Assembly: GCF_006345805.1 (NCBI RefSeq)
Contig: NC_043012.1
Location: 23,808,001-23,872,000, forward strand
Origin: Octopus sinensis
Lineage: Eukaryota
Length of the DNA stretch: 64,000 nucleotides
Direction of reading: 5' to 3'
This document shows positions 4,218-59,418 of this stretch, piece after piece. Below the pieces are notes generated by a model. It made no database searches, was not told the DNA's origin, and saw only the letters and a program-made list of their open reading frames with translations. A program made the translations under genes and the position numbers. Each line of letters begins with the position of its first letter. Position 1 is the stretch's first letter.

Positions 4218-4407
4218 TTTATTTTATAGAAGGAGCTTCTACAGGACTAGAACTGTTTCATTCAAAAGAATCATCAGCTTCCTGATGATTTCTTTTGAAT
4301 GAAACAGTTCTAGTCCTGTAGAAGCTCCTTCTATAAAATAAATTAATTTACTCTGCTATGTATTGAGTACCTTATTTACTGTGGTTAACCCCGACTCAAC
4401 CCGGGAC

Positions 4408-4410
<3 letters not shown>
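4218..4410. mobile_element. Small foldback PLE-like insertion in (TA)n
   Basis: Inverted arms 4218-4277 and 4282-4342, a one-sided extension to ~4410, and (TA)n on both sides. Contains an HHR. Confidence 0.8.
4276..4326 (+). ncRNA. Type I hammerhead ribozyme
   Basis: Stem I AGCUUC/GAAGCU; core CUGAUGA (4282-4288); weak stem II UUC-UUUU-GAA with a U.U closing pair; GAAA (4301-4304); stem III ACAG/CUGU; GUA cleavage triplet. Confidence 0.75.
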
Positions 4411-4443
<33 letters not shown>

Positions 4444-4649
4444 CACATACACACATTAGTATAGTTAGCAAGAAGCATTGCCTCATGTATGTAAATGTTT
4501 TAATTTATTTTTTATAAAGCCAAGACAAAATTTCCTGAGAAAGGTGTCCTTACCTCAAAATACAAGTTAAAAGGAAAATGCATTGACTTGAATTATTTCT
4601 TAGAACTTGCATTGCTTTGGTTTCATAAGAACAATTACAAACATATGCA

Positions 4650-4689
<40 letters not shown>

Positions 4690-4852
4690 TCCATATTTAA
4701 ACATATTCATACAATACATTCAGTAACACATTTTCCTCCTATTGCAAGACATATAACATTATAGAAGGGAGTCAGACTAAACTGTTAGTCTTTTTGTTGT
4801 ATTTCTCTTCATTGTTTGCTGGATGACAAGGCAGTGGATGTCCTTCCAATGT

Positions 4853-5016
4853 GTTATTGTTTCAAGTCACACCTAGGCAATCACCACACCCAGCAGGTCA
4901 TTTATAGCCAGTTCCTACACTGTTTTCTTTTCTGCTCAGATTCTGGTTTACATTTCATGTTGTCAAGGCAACAATTTTACTCATATATAAAATAAATGCA
5001 TGCATACATACATACA
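4853..5016 (+). repeat. Arm 1 of a dispersed inverted duplication (partner 7393-7563)
   Basis: ttcaagtcacacctaggcaatcaccacacccagcaggtcatttatagc...ttgtcaaggcaacaattttact is the reverse complement of 7393-7563. Confidence 0.88.
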
Positions 5017-5300
5017 TATATATGTATGTATATATATATATACACACACACACATATACATAAACCACAAACATGTATATATATATATTATATATATATG
5101 TATATATATATATATACACATATATATATATATATATATATATATTGCAAACATAATATATATATGTGTGTATGCATATTTATATACACACATATATGTA
5201 CAGATACACTTCTCTATTTTAAGCCTGATACATACTCTATCAGTCCATGTTGCCAAACTGGGACAAACAGAAACACAAAGACAGGCACACACACATGTGG

Positions 5301-5334
<34 letters not shown>

Positions 5335-5335
5335 C

Positions 5336-5370
<35 letters not shown>

Positions 5371-5371
5371 T

Positions 5372-5413
<42 letters not shown>

Positions 5414-5431
5414 TTATATTATAATATATAT

Positions 5432-5710
5432 TTGCCTCTGAAACGAAGAGTAGGTGAAACAGGGACGACTGATGAAGGGGAATATTCTTTATGTTGCATG
5501 TCTCATTTTTCTGTTGTTTGAAAAAAAGTTTGTTTTCTATGTTTTTGTTTTTATGTTTTCATTTCTCGTGTTCAACATTTTTTTCATGTCTTGTACCCAT
5601 ATATGTATGTATATATATACATATATCTGTAGGTATACACATATATATATGTATATATGCATTTATTTATATTATTATATGATCGAACACCATGCATCCT
5701 TTTCCAAGTA
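5432..5710 (+). mobile_element. Unclassified interspersed repeat, copy 1
   Basis: gaaacagggacgactgatgaaggggaatattctttatgttgcatgtctc...tgtacccatatatg recurs at ~6150-6460; next to (TA)n. Confidence 0.65.
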
Positions 5711-5939
5711 AGTTTTATCTTAATAATTATGATGCACACTCTTCTATCTCTAATAACTCTTCTCTATCTCTCTCTCTAATCTCTGTCTAGCTGTCTCCTT
5801 CTCTTGTTCTTCATCCTCTCTGGTTTTCTCTCCCTCCCTTCTCTATTCTTTTCCTCTCCTCTTCACCATTCCCTCTCTCTCCTCACTGACACATGACAAA
5901 TAGGAATCTATCTTTCTGTCCATTTCCTTCCTAAAGACA

Positions 5940-6640
5940 ACACATGCTTATACCTGTCTCTTCTCATAAGCTCATCTTCCTAGCGTTCATAATAATTTTT
6001 CTATTGTCTTGGCTTAACAGCCCTCACCATTTGTTTTTACTGTCTTGTTCTCACTGTCCTGTTCTTGTTACCACTTTCACCCTCCACAAAAAATCCCAAA
6101 TTTGCTTTGTGGGAAGGACTGTTTCAATGAAGTTGTGTATTGTCCTTGCCTTCGTAAAGCGGAGTAGATGAAACAGGGACAACTGATGAAGGGGAATATT
6201 CTTTATGTTGCATGTCTCGCTTCTCTGTTTATTTGTTTTTTTTGTTGTTCCAAAAAATTTTTTTGTTTTCTATGTTTTTTGTTTTTATGTTTTCATTTCT
6301 CATTGTGTTCAACTTTTTTTTGATGTCCTGTACCCATATATGCATGTATATATGCATATATATGTAGGTATGTACATATATGTATGTATATATGCATATA
6401 TTTATATTATATTTATATATATATATGTTTTGTTTGCATTCGAAGCTTTCTTCCAAGGAATCTAATGCGCTTAGCTTAGTTTTTCCTTGGGGCTGACCAG
6501 ATTGGAGCAATCTCAAGATTAATCAGCCGAAATTGCGAGGATGATCTGGTTCTTGACTGAAGATTTTGAATGTCCCATCCGTGTTTTTTGTATTGTCTTC
6601 TAAATGTTTTGCGTTCTTGTCCCAGTTTGTATTTTTTTTA
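5940..6640 (+). mobile_element. Longer copy of the same unclassified repeat (possibly a PLE 3' region)
   Basis: 6150-6460 matches 5432-5710 and the element runs into (TA)n at ~6640; the 5' boundary is uncertain. Confidence 0.5.
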
Positions 6641-6652
6641 TACATATATATA

Positions 6653-6693
<41 letters not shown>

Positions 6694-6939
6694 ACAATTA
6701 AGGATAACCTCTTAATAAGGAATCTTAACAAGAAATTATCAGGTAGATAGCGTGAAAAACCTCATAAGGGAAAAATTTCGAAAATAATTCTTTCTTATTG
6801 AACATATTAATTTATATATAGAGGGCATTATTATACATACATGCCTCACACTAAGAGGGACATTAGTCATTTCTACCAAAAATTTTACTAATCATACCCA
6901 ATGCAATCTTTCAAAGCAAGACATTTAAAAAATGAATTT

Positions 6940-7003
6940 AGTCTTGTATCACCTGTGATTTCGTACTTACCGCAGAATTGCGACCATACTCATCAGCAAG
7001 ACT
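6940..7003 (-). ncRNA. Type I hammerhead ribozyme (mirror copy)
   Basis: Reverse complement of 7159-7222 with intact CUGAUGA/GAAA/AUA; inner stem II UCGCA-AUUC-UGCGG. Confidence 0.85.
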
Positions 7004-7158
7004 GATTCTGAACATATCATAAATAAACGACCTGTGCCGCCAAAGTCGAACAGCCATCTGCTCTAATCCAACAAAGCCCCATGTGCTTCGTTGGATTAGA
7101 GCAGATGGCTGTTCGACTTTGGCGGCACAGGTCGTTTATTTATGATATGTTCAGAATC

Positions 7159-7222
7159 AGTCTTGCTGATGAGTAAGGTTGCAATTCTGTGGTAAGTACG
7201 AAATCACAGGTGATACAAGACT
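7159..7222 (+). ncRNA. Type I hammerhead ribozyme
   Basis: Stem I AGUCUUG/CAAGACU (7 bp); CUGAUGA 7166-7172; stem II GUA...UAC with an inner hairpin; GAAA 7200-7203; stem III AUCA-CAGG-UGAU; AUA cleavage triplet (7213-7215). Confidence 0.85.
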
Positions 7223-7346
7223 AAATTCATTTTTTAAATGTCTTGCTTTGAAAGATTGCATTGGGTATGATTAGTAAAATTTTTGGTAGAAATGACTAAT
7301 GTCCCTCTTAGCGTGAGGCATGTATGTATAATAATGCCCTCTATAC

Positions 7347-7392
<46 letters not shown>

Positions 7393-7394
<2 letters not shown>

Positions 7395-7563
7395 ATGTAT
7401 GTATGTATGTATGTATGCATTCATTTATATATTAGTAAAATTGTTGCCTTGACAACATGAAATGTAAACCAGAATCCAAGCAGAAATGAAAACAGTGTAG
7501 GAACTAGCTATAAATGACCTGCTGGGTGTGGTGATTGCCTAGGTGTAACTTGAAACAATGACA
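7393..7563 (-). repeat. Arm 2 of the dispersed inverted duplication (partner 4853-5016)
   Basis: agtaaaattgttgccttgacaacatgaaatgtaaaccagaatc...gattgcctaggtgtaacttgaaacaat. Confidence 0.88.
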
Positions 7564-8344
7564 TGTTTTGCAAAAGGAGACTTTGGATAATGTGATCCTG
7601 GATGGAATATAGTTGATCATAGGTCTACTTGAGGAAGGTTAACCTGGGGCTAAACAACAGTACACACACATGTGTGTGTGCACTCACACATCCCAAACAC
7701 AAGCACAAAGTTATATAGGGTGTCACTTCCCTCTATTACATGGCCCTTTATCTACATATTGAAGTTTATTGCTGGTTTTGTTTTTCACACCAGGACACTA
7801 TTAGATAGGAAAAGGGGCAAATAAAAAAATGTATAGGGAGAGTAAGTAGGGGAGAGGAGGGAATGAGGTGGGAAGAGTGAGTAGGAGATGGGGTGGGAAA
7901 AGAAGAAGAGGGGAAGAGAGTAGGAGTAAATGAGAGCAAGTAGAAGGAAGTCAGAGAATGGGAGGAGGAAATATGGCAGAGTGGGCAGGGGATGGGGGAT
8001 GGGAACAGTAGAGAAATAAAGGGAGAGGGAAGGACGATGGTGAGAGAATGGAGAAAGGAATGGGTGTGGGGGTTAGAAGGCATGAGAAGAAGGGTTGATG
8101 AAGGGGACAGAAAGAGAGGAGGGAGGATGCAGGTAGGAAAAGGGTAGGCAGCAAAAGAGAAGGTAAGCAGAGAAGGAAGGTGGAAGACAACCATACAAAG
8201 AGAAAGAACACAATAGGGATAATAGGTGAAGAGGAAGCAAGAGGGGGAAAGAGAGAGAAAGAGAGAGGGTAATGACAGAAAATAGGTGGGGGGTACATTA
8301 TGGTCAAGGATGATGTCAATGATGACAATGATGATAGTAGTGGT

Positions 8345-8552
8345 CTTAATGCTTTCCAGTATAGGTACAAGGCCTGAAATTTTGGGTGATAGGAGCTAGT
8401 TGATTACATTGACCCCTACTATTTGACTGGTACTTTATTTTATCAACTCTGAAAGGGTGAACTGCAAAGTCAGCTATGGCAGAATTTGAACTCAGAACAT
8501 AAAAAACAGATGAAACATCACTAAATATTTTGGTTCTGCCAGCTTGCTGCCT
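8345..8552 (-). mobile_element. SINE family B, diverged
   Basis: Matches the copy at 11030-11252 (gaatttgaactcagaac, attgacccc...actggtact). Confidence 0.75.
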
Positions 8553-8954
8553 TATTGATGATTATTGTGGTGGGGGAGTGATGATGGTGGTGATAAAGTG
8601 GATGATGGTAGTGAAGGGATGATGAATAAGAGATAGAGTTAAGCTAGCAGTTGACCCAGTTGTCCAAGTGTGGTGATGTGAGAAATTCATATATATATAT
8701 ATAACTCCCTAGTCATTTCAAACTTCTCTCTGATATTCAAAGGACTTCTAAATATCACTGATGAAGAAGTAAGCAAGATGTAATGGACAAATGGTCAGGC
8801 AGTTAAAACCACTGATAACCAACTTCACCAATCAAAATTTCCCACATTTGGAGTAGATTTCTTTTATTCTTGTTGTTATTGTTTGACCCTTTCACATTAG
8901 CCTGCTAATTCTATGATTAAAAAAAAAAAAAACCTTTTTCTAATAAAGTAATTT

Positions 8955-9371
8955 AGGCACAGGAGTGGCTCTGTGGTAAGTAGCTTGCTAACCAACCACA
9001 TGGTTCTGGGTTCAGTCCCACTGTGTGGCACCTTGGGCAAGTGTCTTCTACTATAGCCCCGGGCCGACCAATGCCTTGTGAGTGGATTTGGTAGACAGAA
9101 ACTGAAAGAAGCCTGTCGTATATATGTATATATATATGTATGTGTGTATGTGTTTGTGCGTCTGTGTTTGTCCCCCTAGCATTGCTTGACAACCGATGCT
9201 GGTGTGTTTACGTCCCCGTCACTTAGCGGTTCGGCAAAAGAGACCGATAGGATAAGTACTGGGCTTACAAAGAATAAGTCCCGGGTCGATTTGCTTGACT
9301 AAAGGCGGTGCTCCAGCATGGCCACAGTCAAATGACTGAAACAAGTAAAAGAGTAAAAGTGTAAAAGAGTA
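8955..9371 (+). mobile_element. Full-length tRNA-headed SINE family A (CORE-like 'ccttgggcaagt' segment, internal TG/TA repeat)
   Basis: A-box-like tggctctgtgg and B-box-like ggttcagtccc; near-identical copies at 22746, 41924, 60010 and 63505; 3' tail ggcggtgctccagcatggccacagtcaaatgactgaaac followed by (gtaaaaga)n. Confidence 0.88.
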
Positions 9372-9744
9372 AGTTAAAATCTTCATCAAAAGTTCCATGT
9401 TAATTTATGTTCTGAACAACAGCTTAATAACAAGAAAGATGGTTTATTACATTCTTCCTTGTTGTTAAAATTAATTGGAACAAATGGTGTGTATTCCAAC
9501 AGGAATATGGTAACAAAAGACTTAACCTTGGAAGTAAAACTTTGAGCAATGCATTCCAAATATGAATTTCACATCTTTCCATAAGTTATCTTGGAATACA
9601 CTCTCCAATGTGTTCTTTCTTTGCTTCAGATCACATGATGTGATTCCAAAACAGATTTGGTCACTATTTCACATACATGAGGGTTTTGTAACTGACTTGT
9701 AAATTATATAGGTATAAGTGAAATCAAAAATCAAAAATCAAAGT

Positions 9745-10233
9745 CAAATTCAATGACTGGCGTCTGCTAGTGGGGTGCACAGAGCACCATACGAGTGTGG
9801 TCATTGACAGAGCGGCTAACCGGCTTCCATGCCAGTGGCACTTAAAAGGCACCATTCAAGCGTGTCGTTACCAGCATCGCATTACTGGCACTCGAGCCCC
9901 ATGCTAGTAGGGTATTAAGAGCACCATCCGAGCGTGATCGTTGCCAGAGCGGCTATCTGGCTTCCGTGCCAGTGGCACATAAAAGACACCATTTGAGTGT
10001 GGTAGTTACCAGCATCACCTTACTGGCACCCGTGCCGGTGGCATGTGTAAAAGATTCGAGCGAGGTCGTTGCAAGTGCTGCCTGGAGTGGTTGGCGTTAG
10101 GAAGAGCATCCAGCTGTAGAAACTCTGCCAGATCAAGATTGAAGCCTGGTGCAGCCATCTGGTTCGCCAACCCTCAGTCATATGTCCAACCCATAATAGC
10201 ATGGAAAGCAGATGTTAAACGATGATGATGATG
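9745..10233 (+). mobile_element. RTE-type LINE 3' UTR with an internal tandem duplication
   Basis: Two ~140-bp units (gagcaccat...ccagtggcac...accagcatc...tactggcac), then ggagtggttggcgttaggaag...catggaaagc and (GAT)n. Confidence 0.75.
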
Positions 10234-10307
10234 ATATGAATGCATGCATGTATGCGTGTATGTAGAGAGAGAGAGACAGACAGACAGAGACAGGGGAAGA
10301 GGGAGGG

Positions 10308-10500
10308 AAGGTGCATGGCTTAGTGGTTTGGATGTTGGACTCATGATCACAAGATTGTGGTTTTGATCCTTGGACCAATAGATGCATTATGTTCTTGTGC
10401 AAAACACTTCATTCCATGTTGCTCCAGTTCACTCAAGTGGTAAGGATGAGCAATCCAGTAATGACCCAGCATCCTGACCAGGGAGGAAGATATAAGCCAT
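10308..10500 (+). mobile_element. Old tRNA-headed SINE family D
   Basis: Head catggcttagtgg...ggttttgatcc and body gcaaaacacttcattccatgttgctccagt, shared with 58290-58425. Confidence 0.6.
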
Positions 10501-10913
10501 AGCAACTGGGATTTTCAAATCTCAGCTGGAACCAGAGATATGCCAGCAAACTTTTGGTAAACACTATATGCAACAACAACAGCAGCAGCTCCACTGACAA
10601 TGACAATATCAAGAGTTAGAAGCTCATTCTAAAAACTAGTGAGAACCAAGATTCTAAAGCCAAAGGTTAAAAAAAAAAAAAGAAGCAGCTTGCACAGAGA
10701 GTTAATTCAACTTGTGCTGCTGTTAGGCAATTAAAACATAAAGGCAGCAGCAGCAGCAGCAAGCACACAGAATAGACATTGACACAACTTGTGTAAGAAT
10801 TAAGAAATAAGAGAAGCACACAAATGTTGCAAAATCAACTAAATTTAGGGGTATATATTAGGTCTATACCCCCTACACACTAAAACAAGTGTACATACAT
10901 AAATATACACACA

Positions 10914-10951
<38 letters not shown>

Positions 10952-11029
10952 TTAGAGACAAAACCCTGTAAATTTGGATTTATTCCCTAATATTTATTAT
11001 TATTATATATATATATATTTTTTTTTTTT

Positions 11030-11251
11030 TACTACCCACAAGGGGCTAAACACAGAGGGGACAAACAAGGACAGAGAAACGGATTAAGTTGATTACATCG
11101 ACCCCAGTGCGTAACTGGTACTTAATTTATCGACCCCTAAAGGATGAAAGGCAAAGTCGACCTTGGCGGAATTTGAACTCAGAACGTAACGGCAGACGAA
11201 ATACGGCTACGCATTTCGCCCGGCGTGCTAACGTTTCTGCCAGCTCGCCGC

Positions 11252-11252
<1 letters not shown>
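11030..11252 (-). mobile_element. Full-length SINE family B
   Basis: Minus strand ggcggcgagctggcagaaacgttagc...gagttcaaattcc...gcctttcatcctttaggggtcgataaattaagtaccag; CpG-rich and young-looking; more than 10 copies in the window. Confidence 0.88.
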
Positions 11253-11302
<50 letters not shown>

Positions 11303-11904
11303 ATACAATCACACATACTTTTACACAGACTCACACAGGCATGACTGTGATTAAGAAGCCCCCTTTGCAACCACATGGCTTCATGTTCAATTCCACAGCA
11401 CAGGACCTTAAAAAGGTACCTTCTCCCACAGTGCCAAGCTGACCAATGCTTTTGTAAGTGAATTTGGTTGATGGAAACTCTATTGACCTCAGCAGGATTT
11501 TAACTCTTGAGGGCAGAGAACAAAGCATTCTCTGCAAAGATTTAATGTCTAATGTAGGACATTGTCATCGAATGTAAAAGCAGAGGCCATTACAGTAGGG
11601 GTGGGAAATGCAGCAGAGTGCACTTGAGGGTCAAAGGTTGAGATGTGTTGGTGAGTGGGCCTTTGCTAATCACTTGCATGGCTTTCTTTTGGACAGAGCG
11701 GGGATATGTGCATTGTGTGTGTGTGCACGTGCACTTGTGTATGTGCATACTTGTGTGTGCGCATGTTTTCACAAGAGTGTGTGCATGTGTATGGGTGTGT
11801 ATCAACAGCACTGGCTCAGTATTGTTAATACGCAGAAAGGTCACACTTTGACAGAAGATTTGCAGAGAGAATCTATAAGGGGCAACATAGTTATGGTGTA
11901 GCTG

Positions 11905-12080
11905 GTGCATGGACAACCCTTTCCATGAAGTGGGCCACATGAGACATGGCACATTATCAGGTTGGCCACATGAGACATGGCATATTATCAGGTGAGCCAC
12001 ATGTGACATGGCGCACACTTTAATTTCTCCTTAGGCGTGCCATTCAGAGAGTCCCACAGGCTGCAATTTATCCATGACTG
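11905..12080. mobile_element. Possible hAT-type MITE with 3 internal ~31-bp repeats
   Basis: Imperfect TIRs catggacaa / ttatccatg; (ggccacatgagacatggcacattatcaggt) x ~3 at 11933-12015. Confidence 0.45.
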
Positions 12081-12635
12081 GCATAGATAGATAGAAAGGG
12101 GTTCATTAGTAAACAATGTCTCTTATAACAACCACGCATGTTAATTAGTGCATGATATCACATTTTAATAATTTGATCTGCAACAAACCAGAAACAAACA
12201 ATGTTTAAACCAGAAAACAGGAGGGAAATATCAAAACAAAAACCCACACATACACACACGTATATACATACACACACACATACATACATACATACATACA
12301 TGCAAACATATAAACACATACATGTGCATATATACACACACCATACAAATTTATCGTTTTACTTATTCACTAAAATAAGTTTTAGAACTTTTTTCTAAAC
12401 ATTAGAAAATATATGAAAATAACAAAAGAAAACAAACATATAAAATACGTTTGGGTACTATATTATTTATATTTTTTATTCATTTGTTTGTTTTTATTTA
12501 TTTATCTGTTTATATACTTATTTATTTATTTATTTATTTTTACTTGCAAGATTCCAAAAGTTTCAAAAATGTTAAGTTAGTTACAGCTTCTTTTGTTAAG
12601 ATGGCACAAATTGGTCTACATAGAAATACAGCCTT

Positions 12636-12667
<32 letters not shown>

Positions 12668-12985
12668 CAAACAACAACAATAACAACAACAACCAATAAA
12701 CAAGTCTTGAAAGTTTCCAATGAGCAGAATCTCTGTTTGGTTTCTTCTTGATTCTCTCAACTGTAAAAACATGGATTCTTCAGATTCTTCAAATTTCCTC
12801 TCTGTTTTACTTTTTTTTTTTTAATGTTGTCTAGAATGTTTACTAGCCTTCCCCCCTCTCCCCCACCATTTATTTTCAAATCTTCAAACTTAATTTATGG
12901 AGTGGGTGTTGGTTAATTTAGCAACGGAACCCTAATCAGCATGGCTACATTTAACTAATACTAAGTTTCTTACCCACACACACAC

Positions 12986-13016
<31 letters not shown>

Positions 13017-26130: not shown

Positions 26131-26420
26131 GTATACTTACACATATGCATACACACAAACATATATGCATATATGCTTTACATGTGCATATATACATATA
26201 TATATATATATATTATGTGAAATAGAAAGATGAATAATCTTGTAGTAGATTAATCAAAAGTTTAACCGATACCTTAGTAGCAAAAATCACAGCAGTAAAC
26301 AGCACGGTTGGAGGTACAACCATATGGTGTTGCAACGTGCGTTGGTGCGGATAATTGAAATTAAACATTATTGGTGAATTGAAGAAATGGAGCTGAACGC
26401 AGATTGAACAGAAATCGTTT

Positions 26421-26513
26421 TATTTCATTCTACACGTGTTTCGAAAGGCACAAATTACCAAAATCCATTGAATAATGGGACCATATTGTGTCTTTCTCTT
26501 CAGGAAGAAAATA
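26421..26513 (-). ncRNA. Type I hammerhead ribozyme (mirror copy)
   Basis: Reverse complement of 27776-27869 with an intact core. Confidence 0.8.
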
Positions 26514-26871
26514 GGAAATCCGTTGGAAAAACAAAAACAGAACAGAGGCGGAGCAAAAACAAATCGAACTATGCTCCTAAGAGCCCATGGCGAAACTGTT
26601 TATCAGGTTATGCTGAGAACCGGTGGCTGAAGAATTTAACGGGTCAGGCATCGGTCAATCATGTGGGTGAGGGTGTGTGGGTGTCTTTGTGACCGAGAAT
26701 AAAGTTCTGACTATTTAAGGAATATTGGATGTTTTATAAGGGGTGAGAAAAAATCTACTTAGAGACGTGTGTGTGTGTATACTGTTCTATATATGTGTGT
26801 GTTGGCGTAGGGGTAGAAAACATTTTTTGTGTACGTGTGTGCGTTTGAGCGTTCGGCTGTCAGTGGCTACT

Positions 26872-27216
26872 TATGTAGGGGCCTCGTCCTCAAGATTGTC
26901 TTTGCATGTCTCCAACCATTACGCAACTTTTCGGGACATGAACAAGCGCCAGACCACGGGACTCAGTAAGCTAATATGGCGACTGAAGGATACGAACTTA
27001 AGCTACAGGCTGGAATGGTCAATTTTGTCGGTGGCCCTCCCATTTGATAGGGGCAGAAGGCAGTGCAACCTTTGTGTCTCCGAACTCTTCCATATTTTGT
27101 TTGCCAGAGGCCGGATGGTAAACGGGCTTTTACAGTCGGCTTTTCGATGCCCCCATTGGCGCGTTACACTTATCTGGCTTTTAAATAGCGTTTATAAAAT
27201 ATACCGGCACCCATAG
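26872..27216 (+). pseudogene. C-terminal GIY-YIG endonuclease fragment of a Penelope-like element
   Basis: YVG...NHYATF...LSKLIWRLK...Y-LEWSIL..A.PF....CNLC..E...N......CPH resembles PLE endonuclease C-termini. The upstream part of ORF 26743 is just inverted-arm sequence; the true fragment starts at the inversion junction. Confidence 0.8.
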
Positions 27217-27775
27217 CCCTTGGTAAAAATTCTGAAATAGCCTTTAAGATATCTACGATTAACCACTGCAAGGGGAATTACTCCTGTAAGACAAACGGGG
27301 CTTGGTTTTTTCACAGCGGGGGGTTTCCTTGACAAGGCAGGCTTAGATGAACACACACACACATAAAACATAATATATATATTTTTTTTTTTTTTTCTGC
27401 CACCCAACGGTTCTCGCGGCAGTAGCCACTGACAGCCGAACGCTCAAACGCACACACGTACACAAAAATGTTTTCTACCCCTACGCCAACACACACATAT
27501 ATAGAACAGTATACACACACCACGTCTCTAAGTAGATTTTTTCTCGCCCCTTATAAAACATCCAATATTCCTTAAATAGTCAGAACTTTATTCTCGGTCA
27601 CAAAGAACACCCACACACCCTCACCCACATGATTGACCGATGCCTGACCCGTTAAATTCTTCAGCCACCGGTTCTCAGCATACTGATAAACAGTTTCGCC
27701 ATGGGCTCTTAGGAGCATAGTTCGATTTGTTTTTGCTCCGCCTCTGTTCTGTTTTTGTTTTTCCAACGGATTTCC

Positions 27776-27869
27776 TATTTTCTTCCTGAAGAGAAAGACA
27801 CAATATGGTCCCATTATTCAATCGGATTTTGGTAATTTGTGCCTTTCGAAACACGTGTAGAATGAAATA
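27776..27869 (+). ncRNA. Type I hammerhead ribozyme with a palindromic, loop-less stem III (dimer-type)
   Basis: Stem I UAUUUUCUUC/GAAUGAAAUA; core CUGAAGA 27786-27792; stem II GAAAGACACAA/UUGUGCCUUUC (10 of 11 pairs) with a large loop; GAAA 27848-27851; stem III ACACGUGU; GUA triplet. Confidence 0.82.
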
Positions 27870-27924
27870 AAACGATTTCTGTTCAATCTGCGTTCAGCTC
27901 CATTTCTTCAATTCACCAATAATG

Positions 27925-27973
<49 letters not shown>

Positions 27974-30515: not shown

Positions 30516-30860
30516 ATAGAATGGTTGTATACTGTCAATCTAACACGAACGTGACAGTAGGGGGGATCACCCCCGCTATTTTAGCCCTAGGAAGCATTGA
30601 CGCCTACTGATGGCTTTGACACATTTTTCCTGTGTCCTTATATACATTTACGAAGGGTATATAAGGACACGAAGGGTATATAAGGACACAGGAAAAATGT
30701 GTCAAAGCCATCAGGAGGCATCGATGCTTCCTAGGGCTAAAACAGCGGTGGTGTACCCCCCCTACTGTCACGTTCGTGTTAGATTGACAGTATACAACCA
30801 TTCTATCGCCCCACCACCGTACATGTCTCTATGAGAGATTTAGAAATTTAGTATTCCTGA
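30516..30860. mobile_element. Foldback element in (TA)n with no visible HHR
   Basis: Inverted arms 30516-30645 and 30676-30806, a central direct duplication cgaagggtatataaggaca x2, and a one-sided extension to ~30860. Confidence 0.8.
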
Positions 30861-41496: not shown

Positions 41497-41569
41497 ATTT
41501 ATTTATTTTATTTTATTTTATCTAGTTTCAGCTCATGAGCTGTGGCCATGCTGGGGCACTGCCATTTAG
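41497..41569 (-). mobile_element. Retroposon 3' tail fused directly to the U6 3' end
   Basis: ctaaatggcagtgccccagcatggccacagctcatgagctgaaactag followed by (ATAAA)n, homologous to the SINE A tail. Confidence 0.8.
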
Positions 41570-41669
41570 AAAATATGGAACATTTCACAAATTTGCGTGC
41601 CATCCTTGCGCAGGGGCCATGCTAATCTTCTCTGTATCATTCCAATTTTAGAATATGTACCGCCGTAGC
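41570..41669 (-). pseudogene. U6: U6 snRNA retrocopy, lacking the first few nt and carrying several substitutions
   Basis: Minus strand gctacggcggtacatattctaaaattggaatgatACAGAGAagattAGCatggcccctgcgcaaggatggcacgcaaatttgtgaaatgttccatatttt matches metazoan U6; changes include CpG transitions; no upstream PSE/TATA recognised. Confidence 0.93.
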
Positions 41670-41923
41670 TAAATAAACAAAAAAAAAAAAACCATACAAA
41701 TATGTTATCTTTGATAATTTAATTGTTTCAGTCATTGAACTGTGACCATGCTGGGGCACTGCTCCGAAGGTTTTAGCTGAAAAAATATCAGCTGCAGTAC
41801 TTATTATCTTAGGTCTGGTACAGTTTCTGATTGGAATCCAAAATTATATATATTTCTTTTGTTTTTGTTAACTTTATTTCATTTCTTGATTTTAGAAGAT
41901 AAAAAAAGAAAACGGAAAAAATT

Positions 41924-50629: not shown

Positions 50630-50682
<53 letters not shown>

Positions 50683-51248: not shown

Positions 51249-51286
<38 letters not shown>

Positions 51287-51430
51287 TGATAACCACAAAA
51301 TTCTGATGACAACCCTGACATTTTGGCAATCTTCCTTTCAAAGATAGGCAGAATGGCTGGTTGTGTTTTGTGGTTTTTCTCTCAGACTTTATACCCATAC
51401 ATGAACATATTATATATATGTATGTGTGTA

Positions 51431-51462
<32 letters not shown>

Positions 51463-53149
51463 CACACACATATAAATACATATGTGCATGTGTGGGTGTG
51501 TGTATACATATATAATATATGGAAACGTATATGTACGTACCTGTATGTGTGTGTGTATGTATGTATATATGTGTATATATATACATATATATACATATAT
51601 ATATATATATATACATATATATACATATATATATATAAAGAGAGAGATACATAGATAGAGAGAGAGAGGGGGAGATGGATATATACAAACACACACACAC
51701 AGATCAGACATCTCTATATAGATGTTACTGAAATCCATATTCCCGTCATAATCACCTTCACTATAATCTTCTTCTGCCCCTTTTTCCTACTCCCGTCCTC
51801 ATCCTCAGAAATCTCCCTCACCACCCCCAACTGTTATTCCTGCCCCTCCCCCCATCGCTTCCAAACACCACAGTTTTCAACATCATTAGCATCATCATCA
51901 TCATACCAATATCTTGGAAACAATTCTAATGATATCCCCCACCCCCCGGCATCACCCTACCCCCCACCTCACCCAGTTCCTCACAATCAACCATCACTGA
52001 TGTTTCTACAATAAAAGCTTCCTTACTGCTATCAAACTATCCCTGTCATTGTCACTATTATCATCAATATCGTTAATATCATTAGCACTCCCACCATGAC
52101 CACCACCACGCTTGTCACATCATAAACTTTACCAGGCTAACAATGGAGGTCTCAATGCAGTTGCTTGACTAACTAGAAATAGCAGGTCTAAACCTCCTTC
52201 CCCAAATCAGCCCCCACCACCACCACCACCATTTTGTGTTCAATAAAGACAACATCAGTTTGAGCAATGTCCAGAAGAAACCAAAGACAGGAATGGTCAG
52301 GCCTAGTGTTGATCATAGGTCTTTCAAATCAAGAAGCCGACCTGGGGCTAAACAATATCAGCAAATTTTGTCATCATCCTGATCATTATCATCATCAGCA
52401 TTGACATCACCAACATCATCATCATCATTGTCATTGACATCACCAACATCATCATCATTACTGGTATCATCATCATCATCATCACCGTCATCGTCAACCT
52501 TGGCTCCTTTCATTCTTTCCTTATCCTTATTCTCATCAAAATTACCATAACCATTATCACTGTCCTATACATGAAACCTTACAATCCAATATCATAATCC
52601 AAGCCTCTCATCCCACCACTAACTCTTGTGTCATCACCCCCTCCCATACCCGCCTTTCCCCACATTATTGCAATTATCAATGTCATTATCATCTTCATTG
52701 AATGAGGAAAAACAAAACAACAAACAAAAACAAAGAAATCACAAACATTACCACCACCATCACTAATAATACTACTCTCACCACCACCACCATAACTATG
52801 ACCTTTATCATCTCAACACTGCTACTTGTGTCATAACTCCCACCACTACCACTTCAACTATCTCCACTAACACCACCACCATCACCAGAACTACCACCAT
52901 TGGCACAGCCACCACCAACACCATCATCTCTGATAGTACTATTACTACTACCATCATCACAACCATCACCATCAACACTTCCACCACCATCACCAACAAC
53001 AACAACAACTAAGCACCCCCACCCACCCCGCACTATCTGATTGCTTAGCATGCCACGAATAGCAACATTTGCCTCATATCACAGACCCCACTAATGATTA
53101 TCATTTTAAACAGAATGTATGTCACACATTATATATGTGTGTGTGTATA

Positions 53150-53452
53150 TCACGTGATCACGTGACCGACCAGGCTATCAGATGTGGGTGTACATCGCTG
53201 GTCACAATGCGCTTCACCTTGTTTTAGCCATCAAATGACACCACCCCACTGGCTAAGCAAACAGGCCAACAGAAGAAAGAGTGAGAGAAAGTTGTGGCGA
53301 AAGAGTACAGCAGGGATCGCCACCACCCCCTGCTGGAGCCTCATGGAGCTTTAGGTGTTTTCACTCAATAAACACGCACAATGCCTGGTCTGGGAATCAA
53401 AACCGCGATCATATGACCGCGAATCCACTGCCCTAACCACTGGGTCATTGCT
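53150..53452 (-). mobile_element. SINE family C with tail type 3
   Basis: Head and body match 29719; tail ...gcttagccagtggggtgg...cattgtgaccagcgatgt...gatagcctggtcggtcacgtgatcacgtgat. Confidence 0.8.
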
Positions 53453-53682
53453 TAACTGTTACTGGTGCTGTGATCGAATGTGACTTTTTAGCCCAGCTAA
53501 AGATCTACAATGTCTTGTACAGAATTGGCATGTGGATTCAGGTTCAGTCCCGCAGCGTGGCATTTTGGTCAATTGTTTTCTAGTATAGTCCCAAGCTGAC
53601 CAATGCCTTCTGAGTGGATTTGGTTGGTAGACAGACACTGAAACTTTTCCATTGTGTGTATGTATGTGTGAGAAATCATCAT

Positions 53683-53911
53683 TTAAACCATTTTGCAATC
53701 AGATTACTCTATCAAATGTAATCCTTATTTATTCGCGTTGTTTCGAATTAATCCTGGATTATCCTGTAGCATTGAGATTTCAATGATGTGATTGTTTACT
53801 TTCAGAATAACAACATTAAGGCAGAGGTGCGAGAGGCAACATCTTGCCAATTTCAACATAAAACAGGCAGAATATTTGGGCCAGATACTGCTTTAAATGC
53901 TAAAGGGTTAA
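53683..53911. mobile_element. piggyBac-type MITE
   Basis: Ends ttaaaccattttgcaat / aatgctaaagggTTAA; homologous to 14950-15172. Confidence 0.65.
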
Positions 53912-55124
53912 ATACACACACACACACACACACATAGAGGTACTGTGAAGTGGGACTGAACCTGTAATCATTTGGCTACAGAACAAGCTTCTTGACCACA
54001 CGACCATGCCTACCAGCTATGATATTAACATATCTCATATTCATGCTTTCTCTGTGATGACTCCAGCCATAAAATAAAACAACAAGCATCCTATTGCTGC
54101 TGCTGTTGTTGTTGTTGTTGTTGTTTTAAATTATTATTTATTTATTTATTAAGGTATATTGTTTTCTAAATCTCACTCTTTTACTTGATGGAAATCCCCC
54201 TCCCCCCCCACCTTCCAAACTCTTTCTTGTTTGTTGATTTCATTTTGTGTTTCACCTTTGTAACAATCCCTAATGTATTGGAATCTCAGAGCCAATAAAA
54301 GAAATCACCACCACAACCATCATCATCATCATCATCATCACTAATAGCTTCCTTTTTTTTTTTTTTTTTTTTGTCTTTTGGTTTGTTCCACTCTCCACCT
54401 CCACAGAACAGCTTTTCATCCAGATTTCCAGGTTAGAATAAGGGGAATGTTTTTTTTTTGTTTTTTTTCTCTGATTCTCTCCCTGATTTTTGCTAATTTG
54501 GCATATTTGTATGCTGCTGGACCAATTATTTTCACAGTCGGATAACCCAACTTGGTTTTCCTAAAATATAAACGTGAGGAGTAGGAGGCGAGAGAGGAGT
54601 GGAAAGCTGGACAGATGGAAGGAGGGTGAAGAAAGAGAGATTCCACTGAGAAAGAATTGGTTAAAAATATTTGTTTGAAAACACAGAGGAATGTAACAGA
54701 TGTGACAGTAATGACCACAGTTGTGCTCCAGCATGGCCAAAACACAACAAGAGAATAAAAGATTGTTACACTCATGTGATATCAGTGATTTTGCTTTGTT
54801 TTTCTCTTTTTCTTGACCCCTACAATTCATAAGGCTGGTCACTCAGTGTCCATAGAGAAGAGGTGGCCAAGATCACAACATTCCTTCTGAATGGGGCATT
54901 GGACAGTAGCAGGATTTAAGGCCAGCAATTTTGGGACAACTCAATTACGCTGACCCCACGACTTGACCGGTACTTTATTTTATTGATCCCAAAGGGATGG
55001 AAAGCAAACTTGACCCCAGTGGATTTTGAGATAAAAGACAAATGATTCTGCCAGCAAGTTGATTAAGAACAAACACAGTGGGTGGAATGTAAATGCTATA
55101 CAACAGTTTTGTGTACATACATGA

Positions 55125-55173
<49 letters not shown>

Positions 55174-55269
55174 TGTGTGTGTATTTTAATATTCATAACA
55201 AGATAGAAATACATATCTAGATCATATTATGAATTGAGGGGATCATTGAGCAAAGGTCATATATATATA

Positions 55270-55559
55270 TTAATTGTTATCGCCATATTAATATGGCAGT
55301 CTTATAGATATAAGACTAAAAGCTGTCGCTGGTTAGCTCCATGAGGCCATCGCCTTAAGATAGTTTGTTCGAAGGTTATAATGGACACAGTTTGTGTGTC
55401 AAATAGCTATCTTAAGGCGATGGCCTCATGGAGCTAATCAGCGACAGCTTTTAGTCTTATATCTATAAGACTGCCATATTAATATGGCGATAACAATTAA
55501 TTTCCAGTAACGCTGCCGTAATCTCTTTTAGAGAGACTTAGTAATTTTAATATTTCTAT
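55270..55559. mobile_element. Foldback element in (TA)n with nested palindromes
   Basis: 94-bp inverted arms 55270-55363 and 55407-55500, a one-sided extension to 55559; internal palindromes gccatattaatatggc and agtcttata-ga-tataagact. Confidence 0.85.
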
Positions 55560-55593
<34 letters not shown>

Positions 55594-56319
55594 ATATATT
55601 TTAAATAAGGATAATATCGATATTTAAATATCGATTATTATCCTTATTTATAAATTTATATAATTCGTCACTATATTCACTGCGGTGTTTATTTTGACTG
55701 TATCGTGCTTATGAGGTGTTTGGCGGGCAATTTAACTGGCCTTGTACATACGTGCATATATATGTATGTATGGACATTTGTATGTGTAAGTATAACATTT
55801 GTTCTGCATATATATATTTGTATTTATGTGCTTTGATATATTCAACCGATGACGGCAAAGCTTATTTAAAGCAAAGCTAGAAATTCAGGTTCAACGTGAT
55901 TTTTAGAGTCAGAGATTTCACTGCTATTTCAGCATGGTGGTATCTCTCAGAAACCCTTATTTTTAGTTACACTGATTTGTTCTGCTTTTTATATTTAACC
56001 CTACAGTCTCTTGTGTGGTGGTAATAAAGTATGTGATTGAGTATTATCTGGTAATTGATATTTGATTTAGATGTATTTCTCCATTTTCTTATCTTGTATT
56101 AGTAATTTGTGGTAAATCATTTTACCTTTGCCCATATAATACAGTAAATGAATTGATTGCATCGCAATCATTGACATTTATGTATTAACTGTGTTGGGTA
56201 CTTCACTAGCAGTATATTGGATATACGTTATCCCATAGAGGGTTGCATTTGCAACCCCTATCTCAATTTGTATATATATATATATATACATATACACACA
56301 CATCTCTCCTCATCCATCC

Positions 56320-56425
56320 GTAGTACATGACCATACCAATGCAATCATCTCTCCTGCACGCTGCATCTGATGCTTCTAATGCCCAACATTTCTCTCAGGG
56401 CGCTTACAATCTGTTGTGCATGGAC
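56320..56425 (-). pseudogene. RTE RT C-terminal remnant
   Basis: VSALREMLGIRSIRCSVQER*LHWYGHVLR (RTE RL.W.GHV.R motif). Confidence 0.75.
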
Positions 56426-56462
<37 letters not shown>

Positions 56463-56465
<3 letters not shown>

Positions 56466-56670
56466 GAACGGGTACTGAAAAGTTCCTGGCTTTCAAGGTA
56501 TTGCAAAAGGCCCAGTTGGAGATCCAATCCTCAAAGTTCTTTTACAGGGCTTAGAAAAACAATAAATGAGTGAATCTGAGAGGGGAATATATTGAATAAA
56601 ATCATAGTTAACTGATCCACCTGTATGTTCTTTCATCCAAAGCCAAGAACTTTGCAGCAGCCCCTTTTTA
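56463..56670 (+). mobile_element. Mariner-derived MITE
   Basis: TIRs ggtactgaaaagttcctggctt / aagccaagaactttgcagcagcc; internal K*VNLRGEYIE* resembles a mariner transposase C-terminus. Confidence 0.75.
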
Positions 56671-56991
56671 TACAAACAAGGACTCCCCCATCATTTGATG
56701 ACAGATGAGGGTTTCTGCAATTTTTTTGTTAAACAACTGGCATAGATGATTTGTCTATAATGATCAAATATTTGTGCTCACTCTCATTAGGTCACCCTTC
56801 CATCAAATTGACATTACTTGAACAGGTGCACAGTGAGCCACGCATCAATTGTCGAAGTGATCAGAGAGTAATTGCTCAAGAACATGACAAACTGCTTGAT
56901 CCAGGAAGTGAAACCTCGATCTTGCAATTCTGAGGGCAACATCTTAACCCCCATACCACACAGCCTCCATATATGTACATATACACACATG

Positions 56992-57210
56992 TAATTCAAA
57001 ATGTGACCGCGTGTGTACTGTTGGCGATTTTTTTTCCTCCGTCTTCCCTTCTTTGGATCTTTCCTTTTCCTATGTTTCTGATGAAGAGCTCCGCTCAAAA
57101 CATTAAACCCTCTTTCTTTCCTTCTTTCCTGAGCGTCCAATAATACTATACTTGTTCCACGTCCTCGCATTGTTGTGTTTTCTCTTTGTGTTTTCATGTT
57201 TGGATTAACT
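56992..57210 (+). mobile_element. PLE-like 3' end with a decayed minimal HHR (57074-57108)
   Basis: GTTT-CTGATGA-a-GAGC-tcc-GCTC-AAAA-cat-t-AAAC (GAAA appears as AAAA); ends tttggattaact before a TA/CA repeat; second copy at 58893-59048. Confidence 0.65.
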
Positions 57211-57223
57211 TTATACACACATG

Positions 57224-57261
<38 letters not shown>

Positions 57262-57339
57262 CATATATACATGTGCATAGACGCATAAATATGCAAATAT
57301 ATACATATATATTTGTGAATATATGTGCATATGCAAGGT

Positions 57340-57374
<35 letters not shown>

Positions 57375-58657
57375 TGTAAGTTATGTATCTACATTGCCAT
57401 AATTTAAAAGTCCGTATACTGTTTTGGAATCTAATAGCCATTGTTGCTATTTCTAAATTTTAAGTAGGAGTCCAGGTCAACAAATAAACAAAGAAACAAC
57501 TAAATAAATAAACAGTAGTAGTAGGAGTAGTAGTTATGAGAGTGATAGTTGCAGTTGTGGTGATGGTGGTGATGGGGGGGGGTCATCTTCAGTTGACTGA
57601 TTAAATTTGTTTGTTTCTTTTTTTTTTTTTCCCTTCATTTTTACATGGATTAAATAATGAGGCATTGTATGAAATACAAGTGAGTTCAGGAAGCTAAAAT
57701 GGTTGGGATGGTAGGTTTCCTAAGAGCAAATTTGGAAATGCAAGGCAGAAGTAGTTCTAACTACCTTGTTTATATATACATCTGTACATTCATATATATA
57801 TATACACATATATACACAAACATTTTGTTTGTTTTATCTATTTATTCTACCAGCAGAAATAGGAAATGTTATAATTGTATGCTGATCAAAAGTAACGTGC
57901 ATGGCTGCATATTTGGCGATGCCATTCAGCCTATTCCACCAAAAGTTCACCGTTGTAAGGAGCAGCAGTAAGAGAAAGATTCTTGATCCATTAGTATCTC
58001 AAAAGATTAAAAAAAAAATAGTAAAAAAAAAAAGAAGAAAAAGGAAAAATAAAACTGGAATGGAAAGATAAAAGAAAAAAATAAATAAATTGCTCTTGTT
58101 GAGACATCTCTGATGCCAAATTACTGGAAGAATCTTTGTCAGAAAATGCATGTAATTCTTTATAGTTATTTGTGTTTATTAATGGTAACCAGCTTCCATA
58201 TCATTTCTATTGCAACAGAGGCCATGCACCGAATAAATGTGTGCTTCGTTTCTTGACCCGTCTTTGAGCACAGGTACAGCTTATTAATGAAGGTACATGG
58301 CTTAGCAGTGAAACAATTGGACTCACAACTGTAAGGTTGAGAGTTCGATTCCATGATTTGGTGATGCATTGTATTTTGGGGCAAAACACTTCATCCCATG
58401 TTGCTCCAGTCCATTTCAGCTGAAACTAAGTTGTGTCCACTACAGAAGTGGTGCCTCAAAGACTTTGACAAGAATCTTTCAAATGCCGCTTCCACCCATT
58501 CTTGACAGCTATGGCTAACTTGATGACATTAGTTATGTCTGCAAAGATTTACATGCTACCATTTTAGAGCTTTCTCTACTTTGTACTCCTTTGTTAAAAA
58601 TGAATTAGTTCATGCCTCTTGAAGTTTCTAAGTTCTTATGGCATGAATAATTCACAT

Positions 58658-58687
<30 letters not shown>

Positions 58688-58688
<1 letters not shown>

Positions 58689-58875
58689 AGTTCAGCAAAA
58701 TTTAGATTCAGATGAATATGGTACTTAAGTCAAAGGTACCAGAATTTTGTATGGTATTATCCATATAAATTCATGGGGTGATTATAATCAAGAATAAGCA
58801 ACAAGTATATCCGAGTAGCATGAAACAATTGTACCACATTACCTTGGATATACTTGTTGCTTATTCTTGATTATA
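58688..58875. mobile_element. Small foldback element in a TA repeat
   Basis: Inverted arms 58783-58815 and 58843-58875 with a one-sided extension to 58688. Confidence 0.7.
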
Positions 58876-58892
58876 TATATATATCATTGACA

Positions 58893-59048
58893 ATTTTCTT
58901 TCCCCGTCTTCCCTTCCTTGGACTTTTCCTTTTTTCTATATTTCAAATGAAGAGCTCTTTCCTTCTTTCCTGAGCATCCAATAACATTATACTTCTTCCA
59001 CGTCCTCGCGTTGTTGTGTTTTCTCTTTGTTCATGTTTGGATTAACTA
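58893..59048 (+). mobile_element. Second copy of the 56992 family with most of the HHR deleted
   Basis: ccgtcttcccttc...atgaagagctc[deletion]tttccttctttcctgagc...tttggattaact then (TA)n. Confidence 0.75.
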
Positions 59049-59189
59049 TATATATATATACACATACACACATTTTTGACATATACTTTTCTTATGTACA
59101 TCTGTATTGACTTTCCTTGTTGCTGATGCCATGCCCTATATAGGCACAAATGTAATTCTATTCCCAAATAAATTGAACTTCATATTCAA

Positions 59190-59270
59190 GGCTCTGATGA
59201 AGCTATAAAGTGTGATTCAGGCACTCAACTATGAGTCCACTGCACCTGAAAGCAGAAACAGCTGTAAGCT
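59190..59270 (+). ncRNA. Type I hammerhead candidate with palindromic stem III and a long stem II loop
   Basis: Stem I GGCU/AGCU; CUGAUGA 59194-59200; stem II a-GCU...AGC-a; GAAA 59255-59258; stem III ACAGCUGU; GUA triplet. Confidence 0.65.
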
Positions 59271-59328
59271 AATGAAGTTCATAAGATAAACATCTATTCC
59301 ATTGTCATTTCTCTTTATATATACTTTA

Positions 59329-59418
59329 TTTGTGGGTTAATCAGACTACCATTGGTTTCATGCAGTGACAGATATCTCTCTCAGCATGAAATCAATGGTA
59401 GTCTGATTAACACACAAA
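59329..59418. repeat. 35-bp inverted repeat downstream of the HHR
   Basis: gttaatcagactaccattggtttcatgc / gcatgaaatcaatggtagtctgattaac with a 20-nt spacer. Confidence 0.85.

What the first reader, a model, noticed from the sequence alone, without database searches (positions are those of the whole stretch)
4218..59418. Recurrent architecture: unrelated foldback inserts in (TA)n with one longer arm, suggesting double-ended target-primed insertion
Seen: six inserts with no shared sequence that I can detect (4218, 6690, 26216, 30516, 55270, 58688) follow one plan: TA repeat, long arm with a one-sided extension, short spacer, inverted shorter arm, TA repeat. Where an HHR gives polarity (three cases), both 3' ends point outward. 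Inference: both ends of a cut (TA)n tract prime reverse transcription of the same RNA, at different 3' start points, and the two cDNAs are joined head-to-head. That would be a family-independent PLE insertion mode that routinely seeds long hairpins and ribozymes into microsatellites. Inverted PLE copies are known; this density and regularity is what stands out.
Basis: partly seen in the sequence, partly recalled or inferred. Interest (0 to 1): 0.72.

Follow-up and report, generated by a model that had tools for sequence, protein, structure and literature searches.

The report
Penelope elements primed from both ends
These six hairpin-shaped inserts are real stubs of six Penelope-type jumping-gene families, in a shape already described for that group, and across the genome the two arms almost always end at two different fixed points, which likely records both cut DNA ends copying the same element RNA from two separate start sites.

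Summary
All six inserts are real. Each belongs to a different dispersed family with a hammerhead-like motif and two fixed 3' ends, short (S) and long (L), 53-150 nt apart. C is an autonomous Hydra-like Penelope-like element (PLE); B, D and E are non-coding tandem units like retrozymes. The shape itself (head-to-head inverted copy, one-sided tail, (TA)n target) is already published for PLEs.

The strict pairing rule is what I did not find in print. In position-ordered samples of B, C and E, 92 of 92 inverted inserts point outward; 85 pair L with S, 0 are L/L, 2 are S/S and 5 are unresolved. In 17 of 43 simple C inserts the short arm holds sequence the long arm lacks, which a foldback copy cannot give. 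Sister arms share source variants, and 8-13-bp target duplications in family D mark single events. Best reading: both cut ends prime reverse transcription, one at each site (about 0.72); a single RNA molecule is not shown.

The window is several-fold denser than random DNA, and (TA)n is preferred, not required. This scan reached the same reading earlier in this and other genomes.

The parts
4217..4277 (-). Insert A, short arm, ending at the family's fixed S end next to the TA run
4276..4411 (+). Insert A, long arm with hammerhead-like motif (read by eye) and 68-nt tail 4344-4411, then (TA)n 4412-4439
   Evidence: locus L080 joins this arm to a Hydra-type endonuclease fragment
6690..7077 (-). 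Insert B, long arm with type I hammerhead motif and 114-nt tail 6690-6803; part of a ~480-nt non-coding tandem unit
7078..7358 (+). Insert B, short arm with type I hammerhead motif starting near 7161, ending at the fixed S end, then (TA)n
26214..26871 (-). Insert C, long arm (3' UTR/pLTR) with 150-nt tail 26214-26363, which holds a predicted hairpin
26869..27926 (+). Insert C, short arm: endonuclease C-terminal coding fragment (about 26870-27160) plus 3' UTR, ending at the fixed S end, then (TA)n 27926-27971; reaches 570 nt further 5' than the long arm
30516..30657 (-). Insert D, short arm of a 361-nt non-coding tandem unit; 19-nt tandem duplication at the inversion point (30650-30689)
30676..30859 (+). 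Insert D, long arm with 53-nt tail 30807-30859; the family's hammerhead motif lies upstream of what this copy keeps
55269..55363 (-). Insert E, short arm of a 365-nt non-coding tandem unit
55365..55559 (+). Insert E, long arm with 58-nt tail 55502-55559; the family's hammerhead variant (core TTGACAA) lies upstream of what this copy keeps
58688..58817 (-). Insert F, long arm with 95-nt tail 58688-58782 (inner end approximate)
58814..58875 (+). Insert F, short arm keeping the 3' half of the family's hammerhead-like motif, ending at the fixed S end, then (TA)n

Best explanation
The six inserts are truncated insertions of six Penelope-like families with two fixed 3' ends each, and their mirror-image form likely arises because the element's enzyme cuts both target strands and both free 3' ends prime reverse transcription of the sense RNA, one at the downstream (L) site and one at the upstream (S) site. 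Shown: two fixed ends per family, outward polarity, one-L-one-S pairing, independent 5' extents of the two arms, same source variant in both arms, 8-13-bp target duplications in family D. Inferred: a staggered cut leaving 3' overhangs; two enzyme active sites engaged on different RNA sites; each cDNA stopping on its own (in C often at the 3' foot of the tail hairpin); annealing of the two cDNA ends through short inverted microhomology, each then templating the other's second strand. When only one end primes, an ordinary single-orientation copy results (S or L). For B, D and E the template is inferred to be a circular or tandem RNA copied in trans, since arms run through up to 11 units.
For: Position-ordered samples chosen by a motif common to both arms: C 47 L/S, 0 L/L, 2 S/S, 1 unresolved of 50 inverted; B 27 L/S, 2 unresolved of 29; E 11 L/S, 2 unresolved of 13. 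All 92 are minus-then-plus; 85 of 87 resolved are L/S against 50% for independent choice (p 2.5e-23). Single-orientation copies use either end (C 8 L, 5 S; B 5 L, 8 S), so neither site is rare. Geometry of 43 simple C inserts: 14 symmetric, 12 long arm reaches further, 8 short arm reaches further, 9 arms do not overlap at all. Non-overlap also in A (L083) and E (L393, L403). 6 of the 9 tail-only C arms stop at 3562-3567, the 3' foot of a predicted hairpin 3523-3567, the side a polymerase reading the sense RNA would meet first. Sister arms differ at 24 of 7721 sites against 1.2% for non-sisters and at 13 of 791 diagnostic sites against about 323 expected. Junction overlap of 2 nt or more in 29 of 43 against 32% in simulated joins (p 0.002). 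Complex duplications of 8-13 bp flank 4 of 16 inverted and 5 of 13 single D copies, null 0 of 240 and 0 of 156. In vitro, a Poseidon PLE cuts and extends both strands, starts at two internal RNA sites that define the tail, and is predicted to be a dimer (PMC11167929, main text parts 1-2 read).
Against: No shared A-to-G excess that would tie both arms to one edited RNA molecule (C: 4 A>G, 3 T>C among 25 shared private variants). Exceptions exist: 2 S/S in C (L104, L118) and one L/L in the similarity-selected B set (L018). Most arms overlap (34 of 43), so one linear RNA would need strand displacement or a second copy of the region. PMC11167929 saw no difference in start site between top and bottom strands and did not test pairing within one event. 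The hairpin stop is clear only in C (D: 3 of 5 at 340, foot 341; B and E diffuse), and its window was chosen after seeing the data. Microhomology enrichment is modest. Post-insertion deletion across the hairpin centre could mimic non-nested arms and was not excluded by an empty-site or de novo comparison. Three counted inverted or single loci are local duplicates (L127 pair, L389/390, L397/398).
Confidence: 0.72

Rival explanations
1. Both target ends prime, but on two separate RNA molecules (or two copies within one tandem transcript) from the same source locus, held by an asymmetric dimer.
For: Explains long overlaps, up to about 1.8 kb in L172 and L154 and near full length in L164, without strand displacement. 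Fits shared source variants if one source dominates per cell. No molecule-specific signature found.
Against: No clearly chimeric arm pair among 89 locus pairs in five sets, including trans-mobilised B, D and E with about 5% divergence between B copies; only two loci had 2 discordant sites. Two free RNAs give no obvious reason for the L/S rule.
Confidence: 0.13
2. Self-priming or foldback: one strand (antisense RNA or first cDNA) folds back at a palindrome and is copied, and endonuclease resolution trims one end to make the tail; later central deletions reshape the arms.
For: Published reading of head-to-head PLE copies (PMC3846280, Discussion read; tail as endonuclease resolution in PMC8557442, passages). 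14 of 43 C junctions are symmetric, and A junctions cluster at a palindrome. Explains arm identity and the L/S rule directly.
Against: Predicts the short arm nested in the long one; 17 of 43 C inserts and the window's own C break this, with repeated stops at one hairpin foot. Near-perfect palindromes of 1.8 kb persist (L172), so central deletion is not forced. S-only single copies are common.
Confidence: 0.1
3. Two independent insertions into one microsatellite, homogenised afterwards by gene conversion.
For: (TA)n tracts are reused targets; some loci hold neighbouring copies.
Against: No TA run between arms; 92 of 92 same polarity; L/S rule; one target duplication around both arms; tail-only arms.
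Confidence: 0.02
4. Ordinary TA-targeting MITEs, or long-read foldback artefacts of the assembly.
For: Symmetric TA-flanked inverted repeats do occur in the random sample (L315, L333). No read or contig spanning a whole window insert was seen.
Against: Asymmetric fixed outer ends with variable inner ends; reverse transcriptase and endonuclease ORF in C; arms differ by a few substitutions; target duplications; family-A short ends joined to (TA)n and centre-crossing joints in short-read contigs of 4 of 4 runs, three organism labels.
Confidence: 0.02

Closest known systems
Endonuclease-positive Penelope-like insertions with inverted pLTR and one-sided tail (Adineta Pen2a, PMC3846280; general scheme in PMC8557442 Fig. 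2 legend)
   Same: Head-to-head inverted 5'-truncated copy, tail at one end only, partial tandems, palindromes at the junction, 8-10-bp duplications, microsatellite targets, hammerhead in the repeat.
   Different: Tails here are 53-150 nt, not 30-40. The papers say the tail is 'often' or 'optionally' at one end; here it is a counted rule (85 of 87). They invoke self-priming or endonuclease resolution; non-nested arms argue for two primings.
Hydra clade of PLEs (PMC8557442; its supplement lists Hydra-1_Obim, 2507 bp, (TA)n)
   Same: Family C: C-terminal GIY-YIG-type endonuclease without CCHH, RWL and DKT motifs, CNLC and CPH motifs, (TA)n target, hammerhead-like motif.
   Different: Unit is about 3650 nt with a long linker; the CxCX5C linker motif was not seen; no tree against named Hydra proteins was built.
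Poseidon of Anolis carolinensis in vitro (PMC11167929)
   Same: Two internal start sites bounding the tail; both strands cut and extended; AT-rich target.
   Different: The parts read do not link these to the inverted copy or report one-site-per-end pairing; different clade; much shorter tail.
Metazoan non-LTR retrozymes (PMC7229834, passages; bioRxiv 10.64898/2026.07.22.740005, parts 1-3 of 5)
   Same: B, D, E: 360-486-nt non-coding tandem units with a type I hammerhead, proposed to be mobilised by PLEs.
   Different: The parts read describe head-to-tail tandems ('inverted' occurs 0 times in PMC7229834); here they carry the PLE inverted L/S signature, direct structural evidence of PLE mobilisation. 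Cleavage and circles untested.
Twin priming of LINE-1 (Ostertag and Kazazian 2001; seen only as a passage in review PMC9148063)
   Same: Both target overhangs prime on the RNA, giving an inverted 5' segment within one target duplication; matches the 9 non-overlapping C inserts.
   Different: In L1 the second site is variable and set by annealing, and (recalled) the arms do not duplicate and inversions are a minority; here both sites are fixed, arms usually overlap, and most copies of C (50 of 63) are inverted.

Membership tests
EN+ Penelope-like elements | Single ORF with RT and GIY-YIG-type endonuclease | tested here: met
   Family C, 703-aa open stretch in L168 with RT motifs (FDIASFYPSI, GVPMGS-like DVPMGS, LYRDD) and C-terminal endonuclease; 430 unnamed homologues; no Pfam hit. 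Identification of motifs rests on recalled PLE motifs and PMC8557442.
EN+ Penelope-like elements | Partial tandems and inverted 5'-truncated copy with one-sided tail | tested here: met
   All six families.
EN+ Penelope-like elements | Type I hammerhead motif in the terminal repeat, sense strand | tested here: met
   Pattern match for B, D, E and F (L300); A and C read by eye from printed sequence. Rfam gathering threshold: 0 hits in 7 loci.
EN+ Penelope-like elements | Coding parent for families A and F | tested here: inconclusive
   A: one locus (L080) joins the arm to a Hydra-type endonuclease fragment. F: no tblastn hit to 41 Hydra-like proteins in 30 loci of 3 kb.
Hydra clade | RWK-like and DKT motifs; no CCHH; CxxC and CxH around the endonuclease core; (TA)n target | tested here: met
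   RWL, DKT, CNLC, CPH in family C translations against the description in PMC8557442.
Hydra clade | CxCX5C linker motif and length under 3 kb | tested here: not met
   No such motif seen in the L168 translation; unit about 3650 nt. The paper says 'generally' short.
Hydra clade | Placement in the RT phylogeny | not tested
Non-LTR retrozymes | Non-coding tandem units of a few hundred nt, each with a type I hammerhead | tested here: met
   B 479-486 nt (up to 14 units in L206), D 361 nt, E 365 nt.
Non-LTR retrozymes | Self-cleavage and circular RNA | not testable with these tools
   Needs in vitro transcription and RNA data.
MITEs | Symmetric terminal inverted repeats, fixed length | tested here: not met
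   Outer ends differ by a fixed tail and inner ends vary from copy to copy.
L1-type twin priming | Both target ends prime within one target duplication | tested here: met
   One duplication flanks both arms in D; outward polarity 92 of 92. Priming itself is inferred.
L1-type twin priming | Variable internal second site, no duplicated segment (recalled) | tested here: not met
   Second site is fixed; arms overlap in 34 of 43 C inserts.

The most novel reading that the evidence does not exclude
Double-ended priming is the default insertion route of these Penelope-like elements and their retrozymes: an asymmetric enzyme dimer holds one RNA by the tail, starts one cDNA on each side of it from the two ends of a staggered break, and joins the two cDNAs, so that the tail, the inverted repeat and second-strand synthesis are one mechanism, distinct from both LINE-type priming and L1 twin priming.
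Probability: 0.5. Interest if true: 0.72.

Novelty: new variant of a known kind. Interest (0 to 1): 0.5.

Why it matters
How Penelope-like elements make inverted repeats and tails is stated as open in PMC8557442 and PMC11167929. The one-long-one-short rule, the non-overlapping arms and the hairpin-foot stop turn it into exact predictions for an existing in vitro system. The same signature on non-coding hammerhead tandems is structural evidence that PLE enzymes mobilise retrozymes. At roughly 8 per Mb (wide interval) the genome would hold thousands to tens of thousands of such hairpins, which annotation tools could misfile as MITEs. The architecture itself is not new, and this scan has reported the reading before, which limits surprise.

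Tried and rejected
First pattern search used window-private variants and found 2 places; replaced by conserved motifs. Exact-match junction calling against a single-copy reference was confounded by reference variants (30 of 43 false 'insertions') and was dropped; its result of 0 of 51 ends at the hammerhead cut site is therefore weak. The microhomology null was unfair to BLAST overlaps and was replaced by the simulated null. The pooled duplication test (18 against a null mean of 6.2) was too loose and was replaced by the strict test on D. Nearest-neighbour test of sister arms in B was uninformative (12 of 25); diagnostic sites were used instead, scored leniently for multi-unit arms. In one search the script's short-end coordinate for B was set 13 nt too low; labels o371, o373 and o325 were reassigned to S by reading the flanks. 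A-to-G test: no excess. Tail folding z-scores were weak (-1.9 to +0.5). Rfam found no hammerhead; Pfam nothing for C. Empty orthologous sites: no contig bridged the locus, no evidence either way. No RNA holder listed. Insert B was not checked in reads. [quoted passage not shown] The original L1 twin-priming paper is not held.
Full report
Observation. The six inserts are present as described: a TA run, an arm, an inverted arm, a one-sided extension and a TA run. Exact arms are in the parts list. The six family references share no significant sequence. The 549 nt between the arms of C are element sequence on the strand of the short arm, and the repeat at 59329-59418 is unrelated to F.

What they are. 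The window lies in G000, 2.72 Gb; earlier scan notes call this genome an octopus, which I did not test. Each insert belongs to a dispersed family. Exact motif counts are 3130 for C, 2862 for B and 831 for E. Family C has a unit of about 3650 nt with reverse transcriptase and a C-terminal endonuclease. Its RWL, DKT, CNLC and CPH motifs and lack of CCHH fit the Hydra clade as described in PMC8557442 (passages); the linker motif and short length do not, and no tree was built. B (479-486 nt), D (361 nt) and E (365 nt) are non-coding head-to-tail units, like the retrozymes of PMC7229834 (passages) and bioRxiv 10.64898/2026.07.22.740005 (parts 1-3 of 5). A is tied to a Hydra-type endonuclease fragment at one locus; F has no coding link so far. 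All six families carry a type I hammerhead-like motif upstream of both ends: by pattern in B, D, E, F, by eye in A and C; Rfam scored none.

Two fixed ends and a pairing rule. Every family has a short end S and a long end L; the tail between them is 68, 114, 150, 53, 58 and 95 nt for A to F. To avoid selecting for tails I searched with motifs upstream of S and took hits in chromosome order. C, first 100 of 3130 hits, 63 loci: 50 inverted (47 L/S, 0 L/L, 2 S/S, 1 unresolved) and 13 single-orientation (8 L, two with a 10-20-nt inverted S stub; 5 S). B, first 100 of 2862 hits, 44 inserts, mostly a sister subfamily about 80% like the window copy: 29 inverted (27 L/S, 2 unresolved) and 15 single (8 S, 5 L, 2 atypical) (S labels corrected by hand). 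E, first 30 of 831 hits, 20 inserts: 13 inverted (11 L/S, 2 unresolved) and 7 single. In sum 92 of 92 point outward and 85 of 87 resolved are L/S (p 2.5e-23 against independent choice; three local duplicates are included). Similarity-selected sets, biased towards long arms, agree: A 12 of 12, D 15 of 16, E 14 of 16, F 19 of 22, with one L/L in the B set (L018).

Geometry. A foldback copy must lie inside the arm it was copied from. Of 43 simple L/S inserts of C (3 more skipped as gapped or multi-piece), 14 are symmetric, 12 have the long arm reaching further, 8 the short arm, and in 9 the long arm is only part of the tail and shares nothing with the short arm. The window's own C is of the short-arm-longer type. 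Six of the nine tail-only arms stop at 3562-3567, the 3' foot of a hairpin predicted at 3523-3567 (p about 1e-6 but window chosen afterwards). D shows a weaker echo; B and E do not.

One event, one source. Complex duplications of 8-13 bp flank 4 of 16 inverted and 5 of 13 single D copies in AT-rich, non-microsatellite DNA, against 0 of 240 and 0 of 156 mismatched pairs. Sister arms differ at 0.31% of sites against 1.2% for non-sisters and at 13 of 791 diagnostic sites against about 323 expected. That shows one source variant, or later conversion, not one molecule: shared private variants show no A-to-G excess. Junction overlaps are longer than in simulated joins (29 of 43 at 2 nt or more, against 32%).

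Not an artefact. Short-read contigs of four runs (three organism labels, three studies; X1 may be the source sample) show the family-A short end joined to (TA)n and joints crossing the hairpin centre, some landing inside the tail in X2, X3 and X5. I read these as other copies of family A; no contig spans this locus and no empty site was seen. The other five inserts were not checked in reads.

Density. A strict scan of 60 random 10-kb stretches found 5 asymmetric TA-flanked inverted repeats among 29, about 8 per Mb (2.7-19), against 4 in the 64-kb window by the same scan. The window is rich, but the class is genome-wide and includes further families.

Mechanism. Most likely a staggered cut leaves two 3' ends; one primes cDNA at L, the other at S; each stops independently; the cDNA ends anneal and complete each other. 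The cut, the priming and the joining are inferred; the ends, polarity, pairing and duplications are shown. Rivals are two RNAs from one source (0.13) and foldback with later deletion (0.10).

Relation to what is known. The inverted copy, one-sided tail, junction palindromes, duplications and (TA)n bias are published (PMC3846280, passages and Discussion; PMC8557442, passages and one supplement search; opposite-strand hammerhead pairs 100-700 bp apart in PMC4209133, passages). PMC11167929 (main text) shows two start sites and extension of both strands in vitro. My searches found no paper that states the pairing rule or a twin-priming model for PLEs; subscription papers and preprint supplements were not seen. 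Earlier notes of this scan reached the same reading in this and other genomes; they are not independent support.

Verdict. Real, PLE-made, known in shape; the counted rule and the non-nested arms are a useful, testable addition across six families. Interest 0.5.

Noticed in passing
window 41569-41672 (-): Full-length U6 snRNA copy (Rfam 100 bits) directly beside a dispersed repeat; gene or retrocopy not determined.
   Followed up: no
window 59329-59418: Separate 90-nt symmetric hairpin with a TA run on one side, not part of insert F.
   Followed up: partly
window 4852-5062 and 7354-7563: A 211-nt stretch repeated in inverted orientation at 89% identity, the second copy starting at the right end of insert B.
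   Followed up: no
L252 about 900-1660: A long arm of family E is joined without a TA run to an inverted piece of a different PLE endonuclease ORF with cysteine motifs of Neptune/Naiad type (label recalled); possible template switch between families or the helper element.
   Followed up: partly
L080 1100-1630: Family A long arm joined to a short hairpin made of Hydra-type endonuclease coding sequence.
   Followed up: partly
L206 1268-7382: Family B insert with 11 units in one arm and 3 in the other, 99-100% identical, still ending L and S; suggests rolling-circle copying from both ends.
   Followed up: partly
L256 (family E) and L218 (family D): Hammerhead cores deviate from CUGANGA: TTGACAA in E (3-8 pair changed on both sides) and CCGATGA in D. 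Activity untested.
   Followed up: no
L351 7366-7742, L359 1674-4677, L341 3576-4443: Further asymmetric TA-flanked inverted repeats in random stretches with extensions of 142, 206 and 88 nt, not mapped to the six families.
   Followed up: no
L315 6567-6973, L333 4168-4337: Symmetric TA-flanked inverted repeats, MITE-like, a different class in the same targets.
   Followed up: no
L168 7262-7899 (-) and L126: Other retroelement ORFs sit right beside PLE ends: a zinc-knuckle ORF next to C in L168 and a Hydra-like RT next to a truncated B piece in L126.
   Followed up: no
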